Assembly: GCA_963666735.1 (NCBI GenBank)
Contig: OY762926.1
Location: 3,712,001-3,776,000, forward strand
Length of the DNA stretch: 64,000 nt
From: Gemmatimonadota bacterium
GTDB taxonomy: Bacteria > Gemmatimonadota > Gemmatimonadetes > Palauibacterales > Palauibacteraceae
Reading direction: 5' to 3'
The first letter of the stretch is position 1. Every line of letters begins with the position of its first letter. The translations under genes were made by a program, and so were the position numbers. The notes beneath the pieces are model-generated. The model worked only from the letters and a program-made list of their open reading frames with translations. It was not told the origin of the DNA and did not search any database. Below, piece after piece: positions 1,110-41,253 of the stretch.

Positions 1110-2620
1110 CCCGGTTCTCCTGGTGAGAGGTCGGCGGCGGCCCGATGGAGCGCGTCGAGCACCTCGTCGAGGTGGCGCTCCTCCGTGTGAACGCTCCCGA
1201 CGGACAACCGTACAGTATAACGTCCGCCCAGTTCCGTGTGCGAGAGAAACGAGCGTCCCCCCGCGTTGACCCGGGCGAGAATCTCTCGGTTCAGCCGCTC
1301 CTCGCCCGCGGCGTCGTCTTCGCGCGGGGCACGAAAGCAGACGGTGCTGAAGGAGACGGGCGCCGCGAGTTCGAACGCGCCGCCCTCGACGAGGCGGGTC
1401 GCGGCCGCTTCGGCCATCGCGATGTGCCGGCGCATCGTCTCGGCCAGGCCGTCCGTCCCCACGCACCGGAACAGCACCCACAGCTTGAGCCCGCGGAAGC
1501 GGCGGCCGAGCGCCAGCCCGACGTCCATGAGGTTCGTCTCGTCGTCCTCCGATTCGAGGTAGGTCGGCGTCAGCGCGAGCGAAGCCCGGAAGGGGGCTAC
1601 GTCGCGATACAGGAGCACCGAACAGTCGAGCGAGGTCCCGAGCCACTTGTGGGGGTTGAGGACGATGGAGTCCGCCGCCTCCCAACCGCGGAAGTGCGCC
1701 CGCTGCTCCGGCGCCATGGCCGCCGGCCCCGCGTAGGCGGCATCCACGTGAAGCCAGACGCCGGTACGTTCGGCGATGGCCGCGAGGGCGGGGACGGGGT
1801 CGACGCTCGCCGTGGAGGTCGTGCCGATGGTCGCGCACACCATCGCCGGCAGAATCCCGCTCTCGAGGTCGGCGGCGATGGCCGCCTCGAGCGCCTCCGG
1901 GCGCATGCGGAACGCGGCGTCGGTCTCGATGCGCCGCACCGAGCGCCGGCCGAGTCCGGCCGCGATGGCCGATTTCTCCACCGAGGAGTGGGACTGCTCG
2001 GAAGTGTAGACCGCGAGGGGAGGGCCTCCGAGGAGTCCGTCGTCCCGCACTTCGGCGCCCGCGCGCTCCCGGGCCGCGAGCAGGGCCGTGAAGGTGGAGG
2101 TCGACGCCGTGTCGAAGATCAGCCCGGAGAAGGTGTCCGGGAGGCCGACGGCCTGCCGCAGCCAGTCGACGGCGGTTCGCTCGACTTCGGTCGCGGCGGG
2201 AGAGGTGCGCCACAACATTGCGTTCACGCCGACGGCGGCGACGAGCAGTTCCGCCGCGATGCTCGGCGCCCGCGTCGAACTCGAGAAATAGGCGAGGAAG
2301 CCCGGATGATTCCAGTGGGTGAGACCGGAGACGATGTGCTCGTCGAAGTCGGCGAGCACGCGCTCGAAGGGTTCCGGGGCGCGCGGCGGCGCCTTCGCGA
2401 GCGCGCGGCGCACATCGCCCGGCGCCATGTCGGGGAGGACGGGTCGTTCCTCGACGCGCCTCCGGTAGTCGACGGTCCACTCGGAGGCGAGCCCGAGCGC
2501 GTCGCGCAACGTCTCCGCGCTCCAGTCCCGGTTCCCGTCCCGCGCGCTCGCGGCGCCTGCGGCGTTGCGGGTGGCTTCGCGGGCGGCCCCGCCGTCCGGT
2601 CGATCGATGTGGTCCGGCAT
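1106..2620 (-). CDS. PLP-dependent aromatic-L-amino-acid decarboxylase (group II)
   Basis: THWNHPGFLAYF, SPAATEVE, HSSVEK, WLHVDAAY, NPHKW PLP-lysine motif; AGGAG RBS 5 nt before ATG at 2620. Confidence 0.9.
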   Translation of the reverse strand: MPDHIDRPDGGAAREATRNAAGAASARDGNRDWSAETLRDALGLASEWTVDYRRRVEERPVLPDMAPGDVRRALAKAPPRAPEPFERVLADFDEHIVSGLTHWNHPGFLAYFSSSTRAPSIAAELLVAAVGVNAMLWRTSPAATEVERTAVDWLRQAVGLPDTFSGLIFDTASTSTFTALLAARERAGAEVRDDGLLGGPPLAVYTSEQSHSSVEKSAIAAGLGRRSVRRIETDAAFRMRPEALEAAIAADLESGILPAMVCATIGTTSTASVDPVPALAAIAERTGVWLHVDAAYAGPAAMAPEQRAHFRGWEAADSIVLNPHKWLGTSLDCSVLLYRDVAPFRASLALTPTYLESEDDETNLMDVGLALGRRFRGLKLWVLFRCVGTDGLAETMRRHIAMAEAAATRLVEGGAFELAAPVSFSTVCFRAPREDDAAGEERLNREILARVNAGGRSFLSHTELGGRYTVRLSVGSVHTEERHLDEVLDALHRAAADLSPGEPG

Positions 2621-4691
2621 GCAAACTCCTGACTCCCTCGGGTCGTCCCCCGAATCTTCCGTCGAATCTGCCCTCGAGTCCCTGTGGCTCCTGCTGGCGG
2701 ATCTACGGGGTGCGGTCGAGGACGAGATCGAGGCCGTCACCACCGACCTCTCCCGCCGCCGTCTGAACCGGCCGATTCCGGCGCTCTCCGGACGCCTGCG
2801 GGGAGAAGCGGGGACCGGCTATCGCTACACGTTCCAGATCGCGGGGGGAACATACGACATCCGCGCGGACGACCGCGTGCGCATCCAAGCGGGCGGGCGT
2901 GACGCGCTCGGGACGGTCCACCGCTTCGACCGCACGCTCGGGCTCCTGCAGGCCGTGAGCCCGGAGTGGCTCGGCGAACGCCTCGACGGCGCCGACCTGG
3001 AGTTCGACCCCACGTGGCTGCTGCGCGAACTCTCCACGCGGCTGGCCGAGGTGGGCCAGGATCCGGAGGACTTCTTCCCGGACACCGTGCTCGGGACCTT
3101 CGGCCGGCTCCCTCCGCGCCTCGGCCGGGGGACTCCGCGACTCGACTCCTCCGATGACCTGAACGCGCCGCAGCGCGACGCCCTGGAACGGGTGCTGGGA
3201 AGCAGCGCCCAACTGGTCTGGGGTCCGCCCGGGACCGGCAAGTCCCGCCTCGTGGCGCGCGCGGCGCTGGAACTCGCGCTCGGCGGCCGAGTGCTCGTGG
3301 CCGCGACGACCAACGGAGCCGTGGACGAGATCGCGCGCCGCCTCGCCGCCATCGCCGACCCGTCGATGCTCGACCGCGACCGGATCATCCGCGTGGGCTT
3401 CGATCTGGGCGCTGCGCCCGACACGCGCATCGACCTGGGCGCGGCGCTGGCCCGGCGAATCGAGGGCGGCGCCGGCGGGGTGGACCGCACGCTCGCCGAG
3501 CACGAGGGGCGGCTGGGGGCCCGCCCGCCCTCAGGGTCGCGCGGGGCGTCAGGGGCGCGCGGGACGCGCGAGGAAGCCCCCGCCCTCAGTCCCTACGCCC
3601 GGGCCGGACGCCTGCTCTCGCTCGCCCGCGCCCGGAACGACACGGAGTCCGCCCGCAGCCTGGGCCGCGCCATGCTCGAGATCGCGCGCCAGGCGGAACT
3701 CGCGCTGGAAGAGGCGGACATCGTCCTCACCACCTTCGCCCGCCTCTCGATCCGAGAGGAACTCCGCGACCTGAGATTTGAATCCCTGCTCATCGACGAG
3801 GCGAGCACCGCGCCGCTCCCCTACGTGGCGCTCGCCGCCTCCAGGGTGGCGGGCCCCGCGATCGCCGTCGGCGATTTCCAGCAGCTCCCACCGGTCGTGT
3901 CGAGCACGGCCCCCGCGGCCGCGCGCTGGCTGCGCACGGACCTGTTCCGGGAAGCCGGCGTCGTGCCCGACACAGGGGCCGACGCGGGAGCCGGCGGCGC
4001 GCTGCCGTCTCCGAACGACGGGCTGTGCGCGATGCTCGATCTCCAGTACCGGATGGCGCCCGACATCCGCGAACTCGTGAGCGAGTTCTTCTACGGCGGA
4101 CGGCTCAGGGATGCGCCGGAGGTGGCGGAGCGCGCGACGCAGCGCGCGACGGGGCAGGGGACGGCGCACGCCGCCCTGGCCGTATTCGACACGAGCGGTC
4201 TCGATCCGCGGGTAGAACGCGTGGACGGCTCGCGGCGAAACCGGGCCCACGCCGAGGCCGTGGCGGACTTCGTGGGCGCGGCGGCCCGCGACGGGATCGA
4301 CGACATCGCGGTCGTCTCGCCCTACCGCGCCCAGACCCGTCACCTGAACGATCTCATCCGGCGCCGCCTCGGCCGCGCCGCCCCCGCCGGTCTCGAGGTG
4401 AGCACGATCCACCGCTTCCAGGGGCGGGAGAAGCGCCTCGTCATCATCGACACCGTGGATGCGCCCCCCGGCCGCAGCTGGTTCCTCGACGAGCGGCGGA
4501 ACCGGGACTTTCCCCGCCTGCTCAACGTCGCCCTCTCACGGGCGCGCGAGCGTCTCGTCATCGTCGCCACCGTCGCCGGCCTCAGGCGGACCCTGCCTCG
4601 CGAAGCTCTCCTGAACCGCCTCCTCGTCCACGTGGAACGATCCGGCTCGCGCATCGCCGCCGCTCCGACCGATCTCTGGCACGGCCGCTGA
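2619..4691 (+). CDS. Superfamily 1 (Upf1/DNA2/NAM7-like) helicase
   Basis: GPPGTGKS Walker A, IDEAS, VGDFQQLPP, QYRM, SPYRAQ, TIHRFQGREK, LNVALSRAR motifs; start approximate. Confidence 0.88.
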   Translation: MQTPDSLGSSPESSVESALESLWLLLADLRGAVEDEIEAVTTDLSRRRLNRPIPALSGRLRGEAGTGYRYTFQIAGGTYDIRADDRVRIQAGGRDALGTVHRFDRTLGLLQAVSPEWLGERLDGADLEFDPTWLLRELSTRLAEVGQDPEDFFPDTVLGTFGRLPPRLGRGTPRLDSSDDLNAPQRDALERVLGSSAQLVWGPPGTGKSRLVARAALELALGGRVLVAATTNGAVDEIARRLAAIADPSMLDRDRIIRVGFDLGAAPDTRIDLGAALARRIEGGAGGVDRTLAEHEGRLGARPPSGSRGASGARGTREEAPALSPYARAGRLLSLARARNDTESARSLGRAMLEIARQAELALEEADIVLTTFARLSIREELRDLRFESLLIDEASTAPLPYVALAASRVAGPAIAVGDFQQLPPVVSSTAPAAARWLRTDLFREAGVVPDTGADAGAGGALPSPNDGLCAMLDLQYRMAPDIRELVSEFFYGGRLRDAPEVAERATQRATGQGTAHAALAVFDTSGLDPRVERVDGSRRNRAHAEAVADFVGAAARDGIDDIAVVSPYRAQTRHLNDLIRRRLGRAAPAGLEVSTIHRFQGREKRLVIIDTVDAPPGRSWFLDERRNRDFPRLLNVALSRARERLVIVATVAGLRRTLPREALLNRLLVHVERSGSRIAAAPTDLWHGR

Positions 4692-4824
4692 CCGTTCACC
4701 CCATTGGCCGGATCGTCCTCATGCCGGGCGCGCCCCCTGACGAGCGCGCCCGAGGTTCCTCCCTGTGGGTGGTTGCTGTGACGTCCGTATGAAACCATAT
4801 GCAGATTGCAGATCGGCAATCGCA

Positions 4825-4854
4825 TTGACGCCGGCGGAAGCCGCCGGCTAAATT
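4825..4854 (+). promoter_or_regulatory. sigma70-type promoter P1 (TTGACG-N18-TAAATT)
   Basis: Near-consensus -35/-10; spacer is itself a GC inverted repeat; palindrome GATTGC-N6-GCAATC just upstream (4804-4821). Confidence 0.5.
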
Positions 4855-4939
4855 CCGATTTTCCTCCGCGAATCGCTGCGGGAAACGGACATCCCATCAA
4901 CGAATCTTTCAAAAAAATACAACGGACGGCCGTTCGAGG

Positions 4940-4968
4940 TTGACGTCCCAAAAAAATCTTTTTAGAAT
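4940..4968 (+). promoter_or_regulatory. sigma70-type promoter P2 (TTGACG-N17-TAGAAT)
   Basis: One mismatch to each consensus hexamer, 17 bp A/T-rich spacer, A-tract upstream (~4909-4921) in a GC-rich genome. Confidence 0.75.
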
Positions 4969-4974
4969 CAGAGC

Positions 4975-5269
4975 GTGCCAAGGGAGGCGGCACCGACCGA
5001 CCGGAGGTCGAGGCCGATGACCGCACCGCGAGTTGTCCGACGCGAGATCGCAAGACCGGGACGCGAGTCCCGGGCCGGAGGGAGCGGAGTTCCGGCAACG
5101 GAATGAGGCGACCAAGGGAAGAGGGATCAAGCACAGCTGGTCGGACAGACGGTACCAAGCTCGGCGGGGATTCTGGAAGACCGCGCAAGCTACCAGGATC
5201 GAGCGGAAGTTGGCTGTAAACAAGCTTCCTCGCTCAGCCCCTGACACCTTCGGGTGGCCAGGGGCTGAG
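4975..5269 (+). ncRNA. Candidate structured non-coding RNA, family not recognised
   Basis: Follows promoter P2; nested long-range helices and GNRA/UUCG-capped hairpins; no convincing CDS. Confidence 0.55.
5233..5269 (+). terminator. Strong GC hairpin with C(UUCG)G loop closing the candidate RNA
   Basis: CTCAGCCCCTG...CACC-TTCG-GGTG...CAGGGGCTGAG; no U-tract, so it may be a 3' stability hairpin rather than a classic intrinsic terminator. Confidence 0.5.
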
Positions 5270-5499
5270 TGCATCTACCCGTCCCGCTCGCGATCTCCAG
5301 AGTCCCCGGGCGGGTCCCGTCGCAGGGGTCGCGCGGAGGGATGGCGGAGGGATGTCGGACACCCGAGCGACGATGGACGTGCGCCCGGAGAGCGCCCGGA
5401 ATCCGATCCCCTGCACGCGCCCCGCCGGATTCGGACCGGTCGGCCGACTTTGAAGCCGTTGCGGCGAGGCGCACCACTCCGGACGACTTGTTTCGGTCT

Positions 5500-5660
5500 C
5501 ATTTTTTTGAAAAAAAGAGTGTCCACAAACTGTGGATATCTTGTCCAAATATCGTGGATTTTGAAATCGACGGGCAGCGCGCCCGCGAGCGGAGTCGCCG
5601 AGGAGCGAGTGCTGTCGCATCTTTCGGCCCTTCACGGCTTTCCGCGTCATGTGGAAAACC
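5500..5660. other. Cluster of DnaA-box-like 9-mers with AT-rich tract (possible oriC or DnaA-regulated site)
   Basis: GTGTCCACA 5519-5527, TGTGGATAT 5531-5539, TTGTCCAAA 5541-5549, TGTGGAAAA 5650-5658 (fits TTWTNCACA); T7-G-A7 tract 5502-5516. Confidence 0.45.
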
Positions 5661-5690
5661 GGTACGCCGAAAACCAACCGGGCGGTGCGA

Positions 5691-6125
5691 TTGAGAGTCG
5701 TGATCCAGCGGGTGAGCGGGGCCCGCGTGCGGGTCGGAGACGAGGTCGTGGGGACGATCGGCCTCGGACTCGTCGTCCTCGTGGGTTTCGCGCCGGACGA
5801 CTCCGAGGCGGAGATGATCTGGATGGCCGACAAGCTCTGGGGCCTGAGGGTGTTCGCCGACGAGGAGGGCCGCATGAACCGCTCCGCGCGTGACGCCGGG
5901 GGGGCACTGCTCATCGTCTCACAGTTCACGCTGTACGGTGATGCGGCGCGGGGCCGGCGTCCGTCCTTCACGGGCGCCGCGCGACCGGAGGCCGCGAGGA
6001 CGCTCTACGAGCGTTTCGTCGAGTTGTGCCGGGCGCGCGGGGAGGTGGCGGAAGGAGAATTCGGGGCGATGATGGAAGTGGAACTCACGAACGACGGCCC
6101 CGTCACCCTCCTGCTGGAGCGGTGA
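5691..6125 (+). CDS. dtd: D-aminoacyl-tRNA deacylase
   Basis: RVVIQRV start, SQFTLYGD, GRRPSF, GEFGAMMEVELTNDGPVT. Confidence 0.95.
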   Translation: MRVVIQRVSGARVRVGDEVVGTIGLGLVVLVGFAPDDSEAEMIWMADKLWGLRVFADEEGRMNRSARDAGGALLIVSQFTLYGDAARGRRPSFTGAARPEAARTLYERFVELCRARGEVAEGEFGAMMEVELTNDGPVTLLLER

Positions 6126-6679
6126 GTTTGGGTCCGCTGCGTCCCCCGCGTCCCCTGCGGATCGGAGTCATCGGCCCGGGAGAGGCGGCGCCGGCGGAGG
6201 CGAGCCTGGCCCGCGCGGTGGGAGCGGCCCTCGCCCGCGCCGGAGCCATCGTCGTGTGCGGCGGGATGGGTGGCGTCATGCGGGCGGCGGCCGACGGAGC
6301 CTCCTCGGAAGGGGGGACGGTGGTGGGGATCCTGCCCGGCGGCGATCCGCATGCCGCGGCGGACGGGGTCACGATCCCGATCCCGACCGGGCTGGGCGAG
6401 GCGCGTAACGTCGTCGTCGCGCGGGCATCGGAGGCGGTGGTCGCGATCGCCGGCGAGTGGGGCACGCTCAGCGAGGCGGCCTTCTGCCGGAAGTTTGGAA
6501 TGCCCGTGATCGGCCTCGCGTCCGCGTTGCCCGACGGCGTGGTCGAGGAGATAGCGGACGGCCCGGCGGAAGCGGCCGCCAGGGCGCTCGAACTGGCGGC
6601 CGCGCGTCGGGAGCGGCAGGAGCGGCACGGGCGGCGGGAGCGGCAGGAGCGGCAGGGACGACAGGAGGTGGACGGGTGA
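6122..6679 (+). CDS. TIGR00725 / LOG-family Rossmann-fold nucleotide-binding protein
   Basis: IGVIG..VCGGMGGVM..VGILPG..TGLGEARN..GEWGTLSE; GTGA overlap with dtd. Confidence 0.85.
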   Translation: MSLGPLRPPRPLRIGVIGPGEAAPAEASLARAVGAALARAGAIVVCGGMGGVMRAAADGASSEGGTVVGILPGGDPHAAADGVTIPIPTGLGEARNVVVARASEAVVAIAGEWGTLSEAAFCRKFGMPVIGLASALPDGVVEEIADGPAEAAARALELAAARRERQERHGRRERQERQGRQEVDG

Positions 6680-20832: not shown

Positions 20833-20903
20833 TGGCCCCTCGTCTAATGGCAAGACACCGGCCTTTGGAGCCGATGATCCAGGTTCGACCCCTGGGGGGC
20901 CAA
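20833..20903 (+). tRNA. tRNA-Gln (TTG), CCA not encoded
   Basis: TGGCCCC/GGGGCCA acceptor stem, GTCT/AGAC D-arm, anticodon loop CTTTGGA, T-arm CCAGG-TTCGACC-CCTGG; usual position after ispE. Confidence 0.95.
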
Positions 20904-41057: not shown

Positions 41058-41152
41058 GCCCCAGGCCCGTGGGGCCGGAGCGCGTGAATCCCGTCAGGAC
41101 CGTGAAGGTAGCAGCGGTAAGCGTGTGACGGTCGCCACGGCCCGCCTGGGGT
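41058..41152 (+). ncRNA. ffs: Signal recognition particle RNA (4.5S, small type)
   Basis: GTCAGGACC-GTGAA-GGTAGCAGC domain IV core, terminal stem CCCCAGGC/GCCTGGGG, usual position before dnaX. Confidence 0.92.
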
Positions 41153-41253
41153 CGTTCGCCCGACGTCGTCGGCGTTCTCGCGTCGCGGGGCGCGGGCGCC
41201 CTCAGACCCGAAGGAGTCGAAGCCGGCCGGGACCGTGACCCCGGCCGACCCAG

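What the first reader, a model, noticed from the sequence alone, without database searches (positions are those of the whole stretch)
4940..5269. Candidate uncharacterised ~300-nt structured RNA behind a near-consensus promoter
Seen: TTGACG-N17-TAGAAT (4940-4968), followed by sequence with no convincing CDS but extensive pairing. There are 5' hairpins GTGCC/GGCAC (4975-4993) and CGACC-GGA-GGTCG (4998-5010), and nested long-range helices 5013-17/5161-65, 5025-28/5150-53 and TGTCCGAC/GTCGGACA (5034-41/5140-47). These enclose GNRA-capped hairpins (CCGGGAC-GCGA-GTCCCGG 5056-73; TTCCG-GCAA-CGGAA 5090-5103). Next come a 5169-76/5193-5200 helix with a GCAA loop, a 5201-5235 hairpin and a C(UUCG)G hairpin (5233-69). 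Established: GNRA and UUCG loops are typical of functional RNAs and point to the + strand. It does not match my recollection of tmRNA, RNase P, SRP or common riboswitch cores. Inference: an abundant lineage-specific ncRNA. Possibilities are a divergent 6S-like RNA, a CsrA-sponge-like RNA (about 14 GGA trinucleotides, two in hairpin loops, though purine richness alone could explain many) or a new class.
Basis: partly seen in the sequence, partly recalled or inferred. Interest (0 to 1): 0.8.

Follow-up and report, generated by a model that had tools for sequence, protein, structure and literature searches.

The report
Self-pairing RNA beside DnaA boxes
This is a real, abundant 299-letter RNA gene of uncultured marine bacteria that matches no catalogued RNA family, folds into a knot, and carries mirror-image patches suggesting that copies of the RNA stick to each other.

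Summary
The stretch is a stand-alone non-coding RNA gene, 4975-5273 (+), behind a conserved sigma-70-type promoter. RNA contigs from three studies cover only this interval at high depth. Adapters abut 4975 (3 of 4 runs) and 5273 (2 of 4). There is no Rfam match. It occurs in 89 of 114 genomes of one Gemmatimonadota family (Ca. Palauibacter and kin), with no credible hit outside. Homologues support a three-way-junction fold closed by a pseudoknot between the 5' loop (GGGAGG) and a 3' CUUCCU. An unpaired tetramer is self-complementary in 90 of 90 sequences (AGCT/CGCG/CTAG/CATG), and adjacent bases covary, which points to RNA-RNA kissing, as in OLE. DnaA-like boxes follow in 83 of 88 loci, but this is not oriC: it lies mid-replichore, like datA/DARS sites. 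A CsrA sponge, 6S membership and a coding role are rejected. The partner is inferred only: DnaA module 0.35, an unrelated protein 0.3, RNA polymerase 0.25. The scan noted this RNA before on other DNA (two notes); this report adds transcript ends, the tested pseudoknot and palindrome swaps, and the non-oriC position.

The parts
2565..4691 (+). Upstream SF1 helicase gene (AAA_11/AAA_12); conserved neighbour of the main copy, not of the paralogue
4907..4917 (.). T-tract/A-tract upstream of the -35 (possible UP element or nucleoid-protein site; role inferred)
   Evidence: a loose TT..AAAA match in 86 of 88 loci, no background control run; seen also in paralogues
4940..4968 (+). Sigma-70-type promoter TTGACG-N17-TAGAAT
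   Evidence: -35/-10 kept in all 35 loci printed; RNA contigs start 7 nt after the -10
4975..5273 (+). The RNA gene, 299 nt (homologues about 249-311 nt)
   Evidence: RNA contigs confined to this interval, adapter directly before 4975 (X5, X6, X13) and after 5273 (X5, X6); models R1/R2
4975..4993 (+). P1 5' hairpin; its loop 4982-4987 (GGGAGG, Shine-Dalgarno-like) is the 5' strand of the pseudoknot
4994..5010 (+). P2 hairpin (4994-98/5006-10)
   Evidence: 100% of cells paired, two pairs with two-sided change
5012..5215 (+). P3 (5012-18/5209-15 and 5021-24/5203-06), closing a three-way junction with the long arm P4 (5026-34/5158-67), P5 (5035-41/5140-46), P6 and a variable tip domain (about 5050-5124), and with P7
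5134..5139 (+). Kissing site 1: CAGCTG in a 7-nt bulge; core tetramer always self-complementary
   Evidence: 90 of 90 rows: AGCT 69, CGCG 17, CTAG 3, CATG 1; also 13 of 13 full metagenome copies
5151..5156 (+). Candidate kissing site 2: GGTACC in an 11-nt bulge
   Evidence: core GTAC 76, GATC 2, GTGC 2; 8 rows with a central A-A mismatch, 2 replaced by a GAAA hairpin
5169..5200 (+). P7 hairpin; loop holds an invariant self-complementary GCGC (5183-5186)
   Evidence: GCGC in 90 of 90; stem 217/217 cells paired in 31 genus rows
5225..5230 (+). 3' strand of the pseudoknot (CTTCCT; anti-Shine-Dalgarno-like)
   Evidence: 156/156 cells paired, three pairs with two-sided change; at least 5 bp in 82 of 90
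5233..5269 (+). 3' terminal hairpin; followed by a U-run in some homologues, by GTRCATC in most (likely a weak or relic intrinsic terminator)
   Evidence: RNA contigs end at 5273
5502..5658 (.). T-tract/A-tract followed by DnaA-like boxes (5519-27, 5531-39, 5542-50, 5650-58): distal DnaA-box cluster, not oriC
   Evidence: a box with at most 1 mismatch lies within 500 nt downstream in 83 of 88 loci, upstream in 0 of 88
5691..6125 (+). dtd, D-aminoacyl-tRNA deacylase (likely TTG start at 5691); downstream neighbour of the main copy only

Best explanation
A new class of stand-alone, abundant, self-assembling bacterial RNA. SHOWN: a strong promoter makes a discrete ~299-nt RNA that ends at its own 3' hairpin. 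SUPPORTED BY COVARIATION: it folds into a long arm plus a side hairpin on a three-way junction, and the 5' loop clamps onto a segment just before the 3' hairpin (pseudoknot). This hides an SD/anti-SD-like pair and ties the ends. STRONGLY INFERRED: the bulge at 5134-5139 pairs with the same bulge of a second copy (symmetric kiss), probably helped by GGTACC and the GCGC loop, giving a homodimer or small oligomer that serves as a scaffold or sponge. WEAKLY INFERRED (0.35, the single most likely client): the gene is one half of a promoter-RNA-DnaA-box module that tunes DnaA activity from mid-replichore, in the manner of tRNA-Gly/datA. Transcription into the boxes would act in cis, and the RNA dimer would bind DnaA or a nucleoid protein. 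The confidence given is for the self-assembling RNA; the client has the separate odds stated.
For: Transcript ends and depth. Fold: 90.4% and 96.9% of cells paired, 31 and 20 pairs with two-sided change, 0 of 500 shuffles, slid controls 31-48%. Pseudoknot. Site 1: four different tetramers, all palindromic; it is the only one of 214 windows that is both variable and 100% palindromic. The adjacent positions 5136/5137 are each other's best covarying partner (GC 86, TA 3, AT 1). The tree needs about four double changes (AGCT to CGCG once, CTAG in each paralogue clade, CATG once) with no single-mutant core. The outer pair also swaps (AAGCTT, TAGCTA). Kretsch et al. use the same argument for OLE bridge B3, because adjacent bases of one chain cannot pair (PMC12286853, passages). 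Paralogues in one genome differ at site 1 in 3 of 9 genomes read (G096, G101, G103), as expected for like-with-like pairing. DnaA link: 83 of 88 loci; promoter, RNA and box array sit together at a second locus in genus g18 (two hits in 10 of 12 genomes); RNA and array are both missing at the helicase-dtd locus in G019, G021, G077, G079, G105 and G107; position 47-58% along the replichore in 5 same-genus genomes; precedent PMC10950094 (abstract).
Against: No experiment shows a dimer or any partner. The site-1 swaps are about four events, all in one genus. The terminal pair of site 1 is mismatched in 15 of 90 rows, and site 2 is imperfect or replaced in 10 of 90. My blind whole-alignment covariation test was weak: only 3 pairs reached E<=0.5, 5135-5138 had E=3, and the structure-free alignment slips between clades. 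Base 5138 could also pair with 5013 (97% compatible, a single lineage event). G015 and, more decayed, G141 keep the box array but have lost the RNA, so the two are separable. Read-through control would not need an ornate RNA. No RNA contig from the three clean runs covers the boxes. DnaA binding is inferred from consensus only. The mid-replichore genomes are close kin.
Confidence: 0.65

Rival explanations
1. The RNA self-assembles or binds a protein as OLE does, but its job has nothing to do with DnaA; the boxes hitch-hike as a neighbour (or only regulate dtd or the RNA's own termination).
For: The array survives without the RNA in G015/G141. The RNA is a discrete product that stops about 250 nt before the boxes. 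One co-duplication event explains all paralogues.
Against: Both elements stay conserved in both paralogues while the spacer between them and the flanking genes changed. dtd is not behind paralogue B, nor directly behind the copies L217 and L218.
Confidence: 0.3
2. It is the lineage's RNA-polymerase-binding RNA, a non-homologous stand-in for 6S like Ms1 or CoRP.
For: No 6S hit in 40 of 40 family genomes, whereas 13 of 19 genomes from other classes of the phylum have one. The slot that holds 6S in those genomes is not conserved in 5 family members. Size and abundance are Ms1-like. Lineage-specific replacements exist (PMC11077062, passages).
Against: 6S is also unseen in 20 of 20 genomes of other families of the class that lack this RNA. 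Family genera without the RNA (g14, g16, g19) lack 6S too. The fold is branched and pseudoknotted, not an open-promoter mimic. It explains neither the palindromes nor the DnaA boxes.
Confidence: 0.25
3. The module is the replication origin (oriC) or a replicon relic, and the RNA is a primer or activator transcript.
For: Promoter, RNA, A/T tracts and DnaA boxes form a duplicable unit.
Against: dnaA (2.695 Mb) and parS (2.702 Mb) lie opposite dif (0.716 Mb), 1.02 Mb away, and KOPS polarity does not switch at this locus. No match in phage or plasmid collections or viral contigs (one pattern). A relic origin in the family ancestor is not excluded.
Confidence: 0.04
4. A riboswitch or 5' leader controlling dtd through the SD/anti-SD pseudoknot and the 3' hairpin.
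For: dtd follows on the same strand in most main copies. The terminator lacks a U-run in most rows.
Against: It lies about 420 nt before dtd with DnaA boxes between. Paralogue B has no dtd behind it, and in L217 and L218 another gene follows. The product is a discrete high-depth RNA with no dtd cover. No antiterminator covaries.
Confidence: 0.03
5. A CsrA/RsmA sponge.
For: 14 GGA; purine-rich variable domain.
Against: No CsrA family hit in the genome. GGA is not enriched, and only one is conserved, inside the pseudoknot.
Confidence: 0.02

Closest known systems
OLE, ROOL and GOLLD RNAs (RNA-only homo-oligomers; PMC12286853, passages read)
   Same: Large orphan ncRNA with many covarying stems; a symmetric kissing element whose adjacent bases swap between palindromes (OLE L9.3: GGCC/GAUC/AGCU; here AGCU/CGCG/CUAG/CAUG).
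   Different: No Rfam match at all. About 250-310 nt, i.e. much shorter (their sizes of roughly 600-800 nt are recalled). The kiss is in a helix bulge, not a hairpin loop. The ends are tied by an SD/anti-SD-like pseudoknot. Chromosomal, family-restricted and linked to DnaA boxes.
Ms1 and CoRP (abundant RNAP-binding RNAs replacing 6S; PMC11077062, passages)
   Same: About 300 nt (Ms1), abundant, own promoter, lineage-restricted, in genomes with no recognisable 6S.
   Different: No Rfam Ms1 or 6S score; different architecture and synteny; RNAP binding untested.
E. coli glyV-X-Y/datA and DARS1/DARS2 (PMC10950094 abstract; PMC4585315 passages)
   Same: A stable-RNA gene with a strong promoter directly upstream of a non-origin DnaA-box cluster at a conserved distance from oriC.
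   Different: The upstream RNA is a novel ornate RNA, not tRNA. IHF/Fis sites and any DnaA nucleotide-exchange or hydrolysis activity were not tested.
Retroviral dimer-initiation kissing loops and the raiA motif RNA (both recalled, not tested)
   Same: Palindrome swaps that keep self-pairing (dimer-initiation site); a 200-300 nt pseudoknotted orphan RNA (raiA).
   Different: No sequence or model similarity found in Rfam scans; bacterial chromosomal gene.

Membership tests
6S RNA (RF00013) | Scores against the 6S covariance model | tested here: not met
   No hit in the stretch or genome; 0 of 40 family genomes
6S RNA (RF00013) | Long rod with a central bubble mimicking an open promoter (recalled) | tested here: not met
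   Covariation gives a branched, pseudoknotted fold
6S RNA (RF00013) | Same gene slot as 6S in the phylum | tested here: not met
   That slot maps to genome position ~0.582 Mb, not here, and shows no conserved 6S
6S / Ms1 / CoRP | Binds RNA polymerase | not testable with these tools
   Needs RIP or in-vitro binding
CsrB/RsmY-type sponges | Many conserved GGA in hairpin loops and a csrA gene | tested here: not met
tmRNA, RNase P RNA, SRP RNA | Model score; the genome's own copy | tested here: not met
   All three are present elsewhere in the genome; no score here
OLE/ROOL/GOLLD families | Rfam model match | tested here: not met
   (window plus 8 homologous loci)
RNA-only homo-oligomers (as a way of working) | Covariation between adjacent bases that keeps a palindrome | tested here: met
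   criterion from PMC12286853
RNA-only homo-oligomers (as a way of working) | Oligomer seen in solution or by cryo-EM | not testable with these tools
   Experiment needed
oriC | Opposite dif, at the strand-polarity switch, near dnaA/parS | tested here: not met
datA/DARS-type DnaA control sites | Cluster of DnaA boxes away from oriC at a conserved relative position | tested here: met
   47-58% of the arm in 5 same-genus genomes; boxes judged by consensus only
datA/DARS-type DnaA control sites | DnaA binding with ATP hydrolysis or nucleotide exchange; IHF/Fis sites | not testable with these tools
   Activity needs biochemistry; IHF/Fis sites were not searched
Riboswitch / cis leader | Constant downstream gene and alternative expression platform | tested here: not met
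   Paralogue B, L217 and L218 have other genes directly downstream; discrete product

The most novel reading that the evidence does not exclude
A self-pairing structured RNA acts as a trans-acting part of bacterial replication control: it is made beside a mid-replichore DnaA-box cluster, dimerises through palindromic bulges, and thereby captures DnaA or couples sister copies of the cluster. I know of no RNA with such a role in chromosome initiation (from memory; not searched beyond).
Probability: 0.15. Interest if true: 0.92.

Novelty: new variant of a known kind. Interest (0 to 1): 0.72.

Why it matters
Few large bacterial RNAs are known to assemble with themselves, and those solved so far are much bigger. 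A 250-300 nt RNA with a natural series of orthogonal palindromes (AGCU, CGCG, CUAG, CAUG) is a small, ready-made test case for RNA quaternary structure. It is very abundant in sponge-associated metatranscriptomes, in a family that shows no 6S RNA. Its tight link to a non-origin DnaA-box cluster gives a direct way to ask whether a structured RNA takes part in replication control.

Tried and rejected
Rfam at gathering and E-value thresholds on the window and on 8 homologous loci: only chance hits. ARAGORN: no tRNA or tmRNA here. A resemblance of the GGTACCA bulge to T-box or CCA-binding motifs (recalled) was dropped: there is no Rfam T-box score, and the segment varies in a way that mostly keeps self-complementarity. 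Coding: lengths fall in all three frames (47/22/21 of 90), indels are scattered, and the ORFs crossing the stretch were not tested further. Homologues outside the family: R1 gave 2 and R2 1 weak hits (20-24 bits) among 144 other phylum genomes, and R2 0 of 31 in the sister family. The best weak hit looked like chance on re-scoring. These searches score only 11-16 candidates per genome, so the result is 'not found', not 'absent'. Forty dtd-upstream loci from other families gave nothing. Phages, plasmids and viral contigs: no match. The blind covariation scan with a home-made tree null was weak. The 6S slot of this genome folds no better than shuffles (z -0.72) and is not conserved. Cumulative GC skew alone was ambiguous for the origin; dif, parS and KOPS were used instead. 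Absence of RNA cover on the flanks and boxes is not evidence that they are untranscribed. Run X1 gave one low-depth contig spanning promoter and RNA, which may be DNA. G093 was left out of the replichore figures because its dif-like hit has 2 mismatches. The helicase+dtd tree is a quick tree with weak deep branches.

Full report
Observation. The promoter is real and rare by chance, and the 302-nt stretch folds better than all 100 shuffles (z -4.34). Rfam 15 gives nothing here or on 8 homologous loci. The genome's tmRNA, RNase P RNA and SRP RNA are elsewhere. The gene lies between an SF1 helicase and dtd.

It is transcribed. Logan contigs of 4 RNA runs (4 of the 23 listed) were laid on 4300-6200. 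In X5, X6 and X13 (three studies) contigs fall only within 4975-5273, at summed depths of 60 to 77,000 per bin, with zero on the flanks. Illumina adapter lies directly before 4975 in all three and directly after 5273 in X5 and X6. Position 4975 is 7 nt after the -10 box. These reads come from relatives 90-100% alike, and contigs do not give the strand. The + strand is inferred from the promoter, from U-runs after the last hairpin in some homologues, and from G-U pairs and GNRA/UUCG loops. X1 gave one low-depth contig across the promoter, possibly DNA.

Distribution. Model R1 hit 86 of 114 genomes of the family (one of them weak). Model R2 hit 89 of 114, and 0 of 31 in the sister family. Among 144 other phylum genomes only weak 20-24-bit hits appeared; that draw includes G200 and G236, flagged as unpublished, which enter only this tally. 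A promoter-plus-P1 pattern over all GTDB species gave 69 loci, of which 38 score with R1. Of these, 36 are titled Gemmatimonadota, Gemmatimonadales/-etes or Ca. Palauibacter, one 'uncultured bacterium' and one 'Akkermansiaceae'. All 15 metagenome hits were homologues, 13 of them full length. No match in phages, plasmids or viral contigs. Genomes lacking the RNA nest among those that have it, suggesting several losses (quick tree). Genus g18 has two paralogues (two hits in 10 of 12 genomes).

Fold. On alignments not fitted to a structure, the hand-derived model pairs 96.9% of cells in 14 genus members and 90.4% in 26 other family members. It has 20 and 31 pairs with two-sided changes, 0 of 500 shuffles reach these values, and slid registers give 31-48%. 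The structure was derived from these same sequences and kin are not independent, so these controls overstate. The model is P1, P2, then P3 closing a three-way junction with a long arm (P4-P5-P6 plus a variable tip) and P7, then a 3' hairpin. The P1 loop pairs with a pyrimidine run before the 3' hairpin: 156 of 156 cells, at least 5 bp in 82 of 90 sequences, and more Watson-Crick pairs with its own partner than in any of 300 shuffles. RNAalifold picks the same helix unprompted. Completed, the nested model is -136.4 kcal/mol without the pseudoknot, against an MFE of -140.3 for a stretch 3 nt longer. Against: a blind all-pairs test with my own tree-based null gave only 3 pairs at E<=0.5, although the top four pairs are all in the model; the alignment slips between clades. 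Several first-reader helices are not the conserved ones.

Self-pairing. For 90 full-length copies (94 hits minus 4 truncated or chimeric: L070, L142, L215, L216) the tetramer 5135-5138, in a bulge, is self-complementary in 90 of 90: AGCT 69, CGCG 17, CTAG 3, CATG 1. Of 214 four-column windows only one other is 100% palindromic, the invariant GCGC of the P7 loop. The neighbours 5136 and 5137 are each other's best covarying partner and are always Watson-Crick. The tree needs about four double changes and shows no single-mutant core. Neighbouring bases of one chain cannot pair, and Kretsch et al. use exactly this signal to support the OLE dimer bridge B3 (PMC12286853, passages). All 13 full metagenome copies, found by a pattern that ignores this site, obey the rule (some are duplicates). 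Flanks also swap, to AAGCTT and TAGCTA. Paralogues of one genome differ at this site in 3 of 9 genomes read. A second bulge, GGTACC, is palindromic in 78 of 90, wobble-compatible in 2, has a central A-A mismatch in 8, and is replaced by a GAAA hairpin in genus g20. Caveats: few events, one genus, a mismatched outer pair in 15 of 90, and template-switch mutation (recalled) can also create palindromes, though it would not explain their retention.

DnaA boxes. A box within one mismatch of the consensus (recalled) lies within 500 nt downstream in 83 of 88 loci and upstream in none. The array is a T/A tract, two or three tandem TGTGGAWAA-type boxes and a further pair about 60-100 nt on. It is not oriC: dnaA and parS sit at 2.70 Mb, opposite a dif-like site at 0.716 Mb, and this locus is 1.02 Mb away with no switch in KOPS polarity. 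In G000, G006, G010, G011 and G023 it lies about 47-58% along the arm (same genus, not independent). Paralogue B carries promoter, RNA and array to a different gene neighbourhood. At the helicase-dtd locus, RNA and array are both missing in G019, G021, G077, G079, G105 and G107, but G015 and G141 keep the array without the RNA. E. coli datA is controlled by read-through from an upstream tRNA operon (PMC10950094, abstract and outline), and datA/DARS keep their distance from oriC (PMC4585315, passages).

6S and CsrA. No CsrA in the genome, and GGA is not enriched. 6S is found in 13 of 19 genomes of other classes, in 0 of 20 from other families of this class, and in 0 of 40 of this family. Its slot maps to 0.582 Mb and has no conserved RNA. 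A Ms1/CoRP-like role (PMC11077062, passages) is therefore possible, but the loss of 6S is wider than this RNA's range.

Mechanism and odds. Shown: gene, ends, abundance in relatives, family-wide conservation. Supported: fold and pseudoknot. Inferred: homodimer or oligomer by symmetric kissing (about 0.7). Client, inferred only: the DnaA module 0.35, an unrelated partner 0.3, RNA polymerase 0.25, others about 0.1.

Novelty. I found no description in print in searches (open-access library only). PMC11109978 has no mention of Gemmatimonas in its main text (supplements not seen, and supplements of motif surveys could list it). PMC10469786 was seen only as a listing. Two earlier notes of this scan report the same RNA and boxes on other genomes. 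One pointed me to PMC12286853 and is marked 'part of it fell', without saying which part; I tested the claims myself. Verdict: a new RNA family of a known rare kind (ornate, probably self-assembling); interest 0.72.

Noticed in passing
G000:C1 about 2,694,560-2,694,650 (outside the window): Between dnaA and dnaN lie DnaA-box-like TGTCGAA repeats next to GTAGTAGTAG and GGCC, resembling a DnaA-trio unwinding element (motif recalled): likely the true oriC.
   Followed up: partly
G000:C1 2,695,393-2,695,877 (L093/L094): The DnaA domain match is split into two overlapping pieces in different frames, probably an assembly indel.
   Followed up: no
L216:1142-1415 (G135): A second, partial copy: helicase end, promoter and the first ~90 nt of the RNA run into an unrelated reading frame; promoter capture or assembly chimera.
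   Followed up: no
window 5177: Adapter abuts 5177 inside P7 in two studies (X5, X6): a processing site or a reverse-transcription stop.
   Followed up: no
L262 and L267 (G015, G141; small genomes): The RNA is deleted but a -35-like TTGAC and the DnaA-like array remain upstream of dtd.
   Followed up: partly
L204, L211 (genus g18, paralogue B): The second copy sits between a long secreted-looking peptidase-like gene and a gene with a JAB-like motif (both guessed from the translation, not scanned); the g18 copies also have an extra hairpin before the pseudoknot strand.
   Followed up: no
L021 (G018) near the 3' end of the RNA: The pseudoknot strand reads CACCTCCTTA, like the 3' end of 16S rRNA (recalled); probably chance, but the segment is anti-Shine-Dalgarno-like throughout.
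   Followed up: no
G000:C1 about 582,010-582,240 (L288): The slot that holds 6S in other classes keeps a terminator but no recognisable 6S; 6S seems lost or unrecognisable across the class.
   Followed up: partly
window 20833-20903 and 41059-41154: tRNA-Gln(TTG) and the small SRP RNA.
   Followed up: no
L186: A full homologue (102 bits) on a contig titled Akkermansiaceae; likely a mislabelled or mis-binned record.
   Followed up: no
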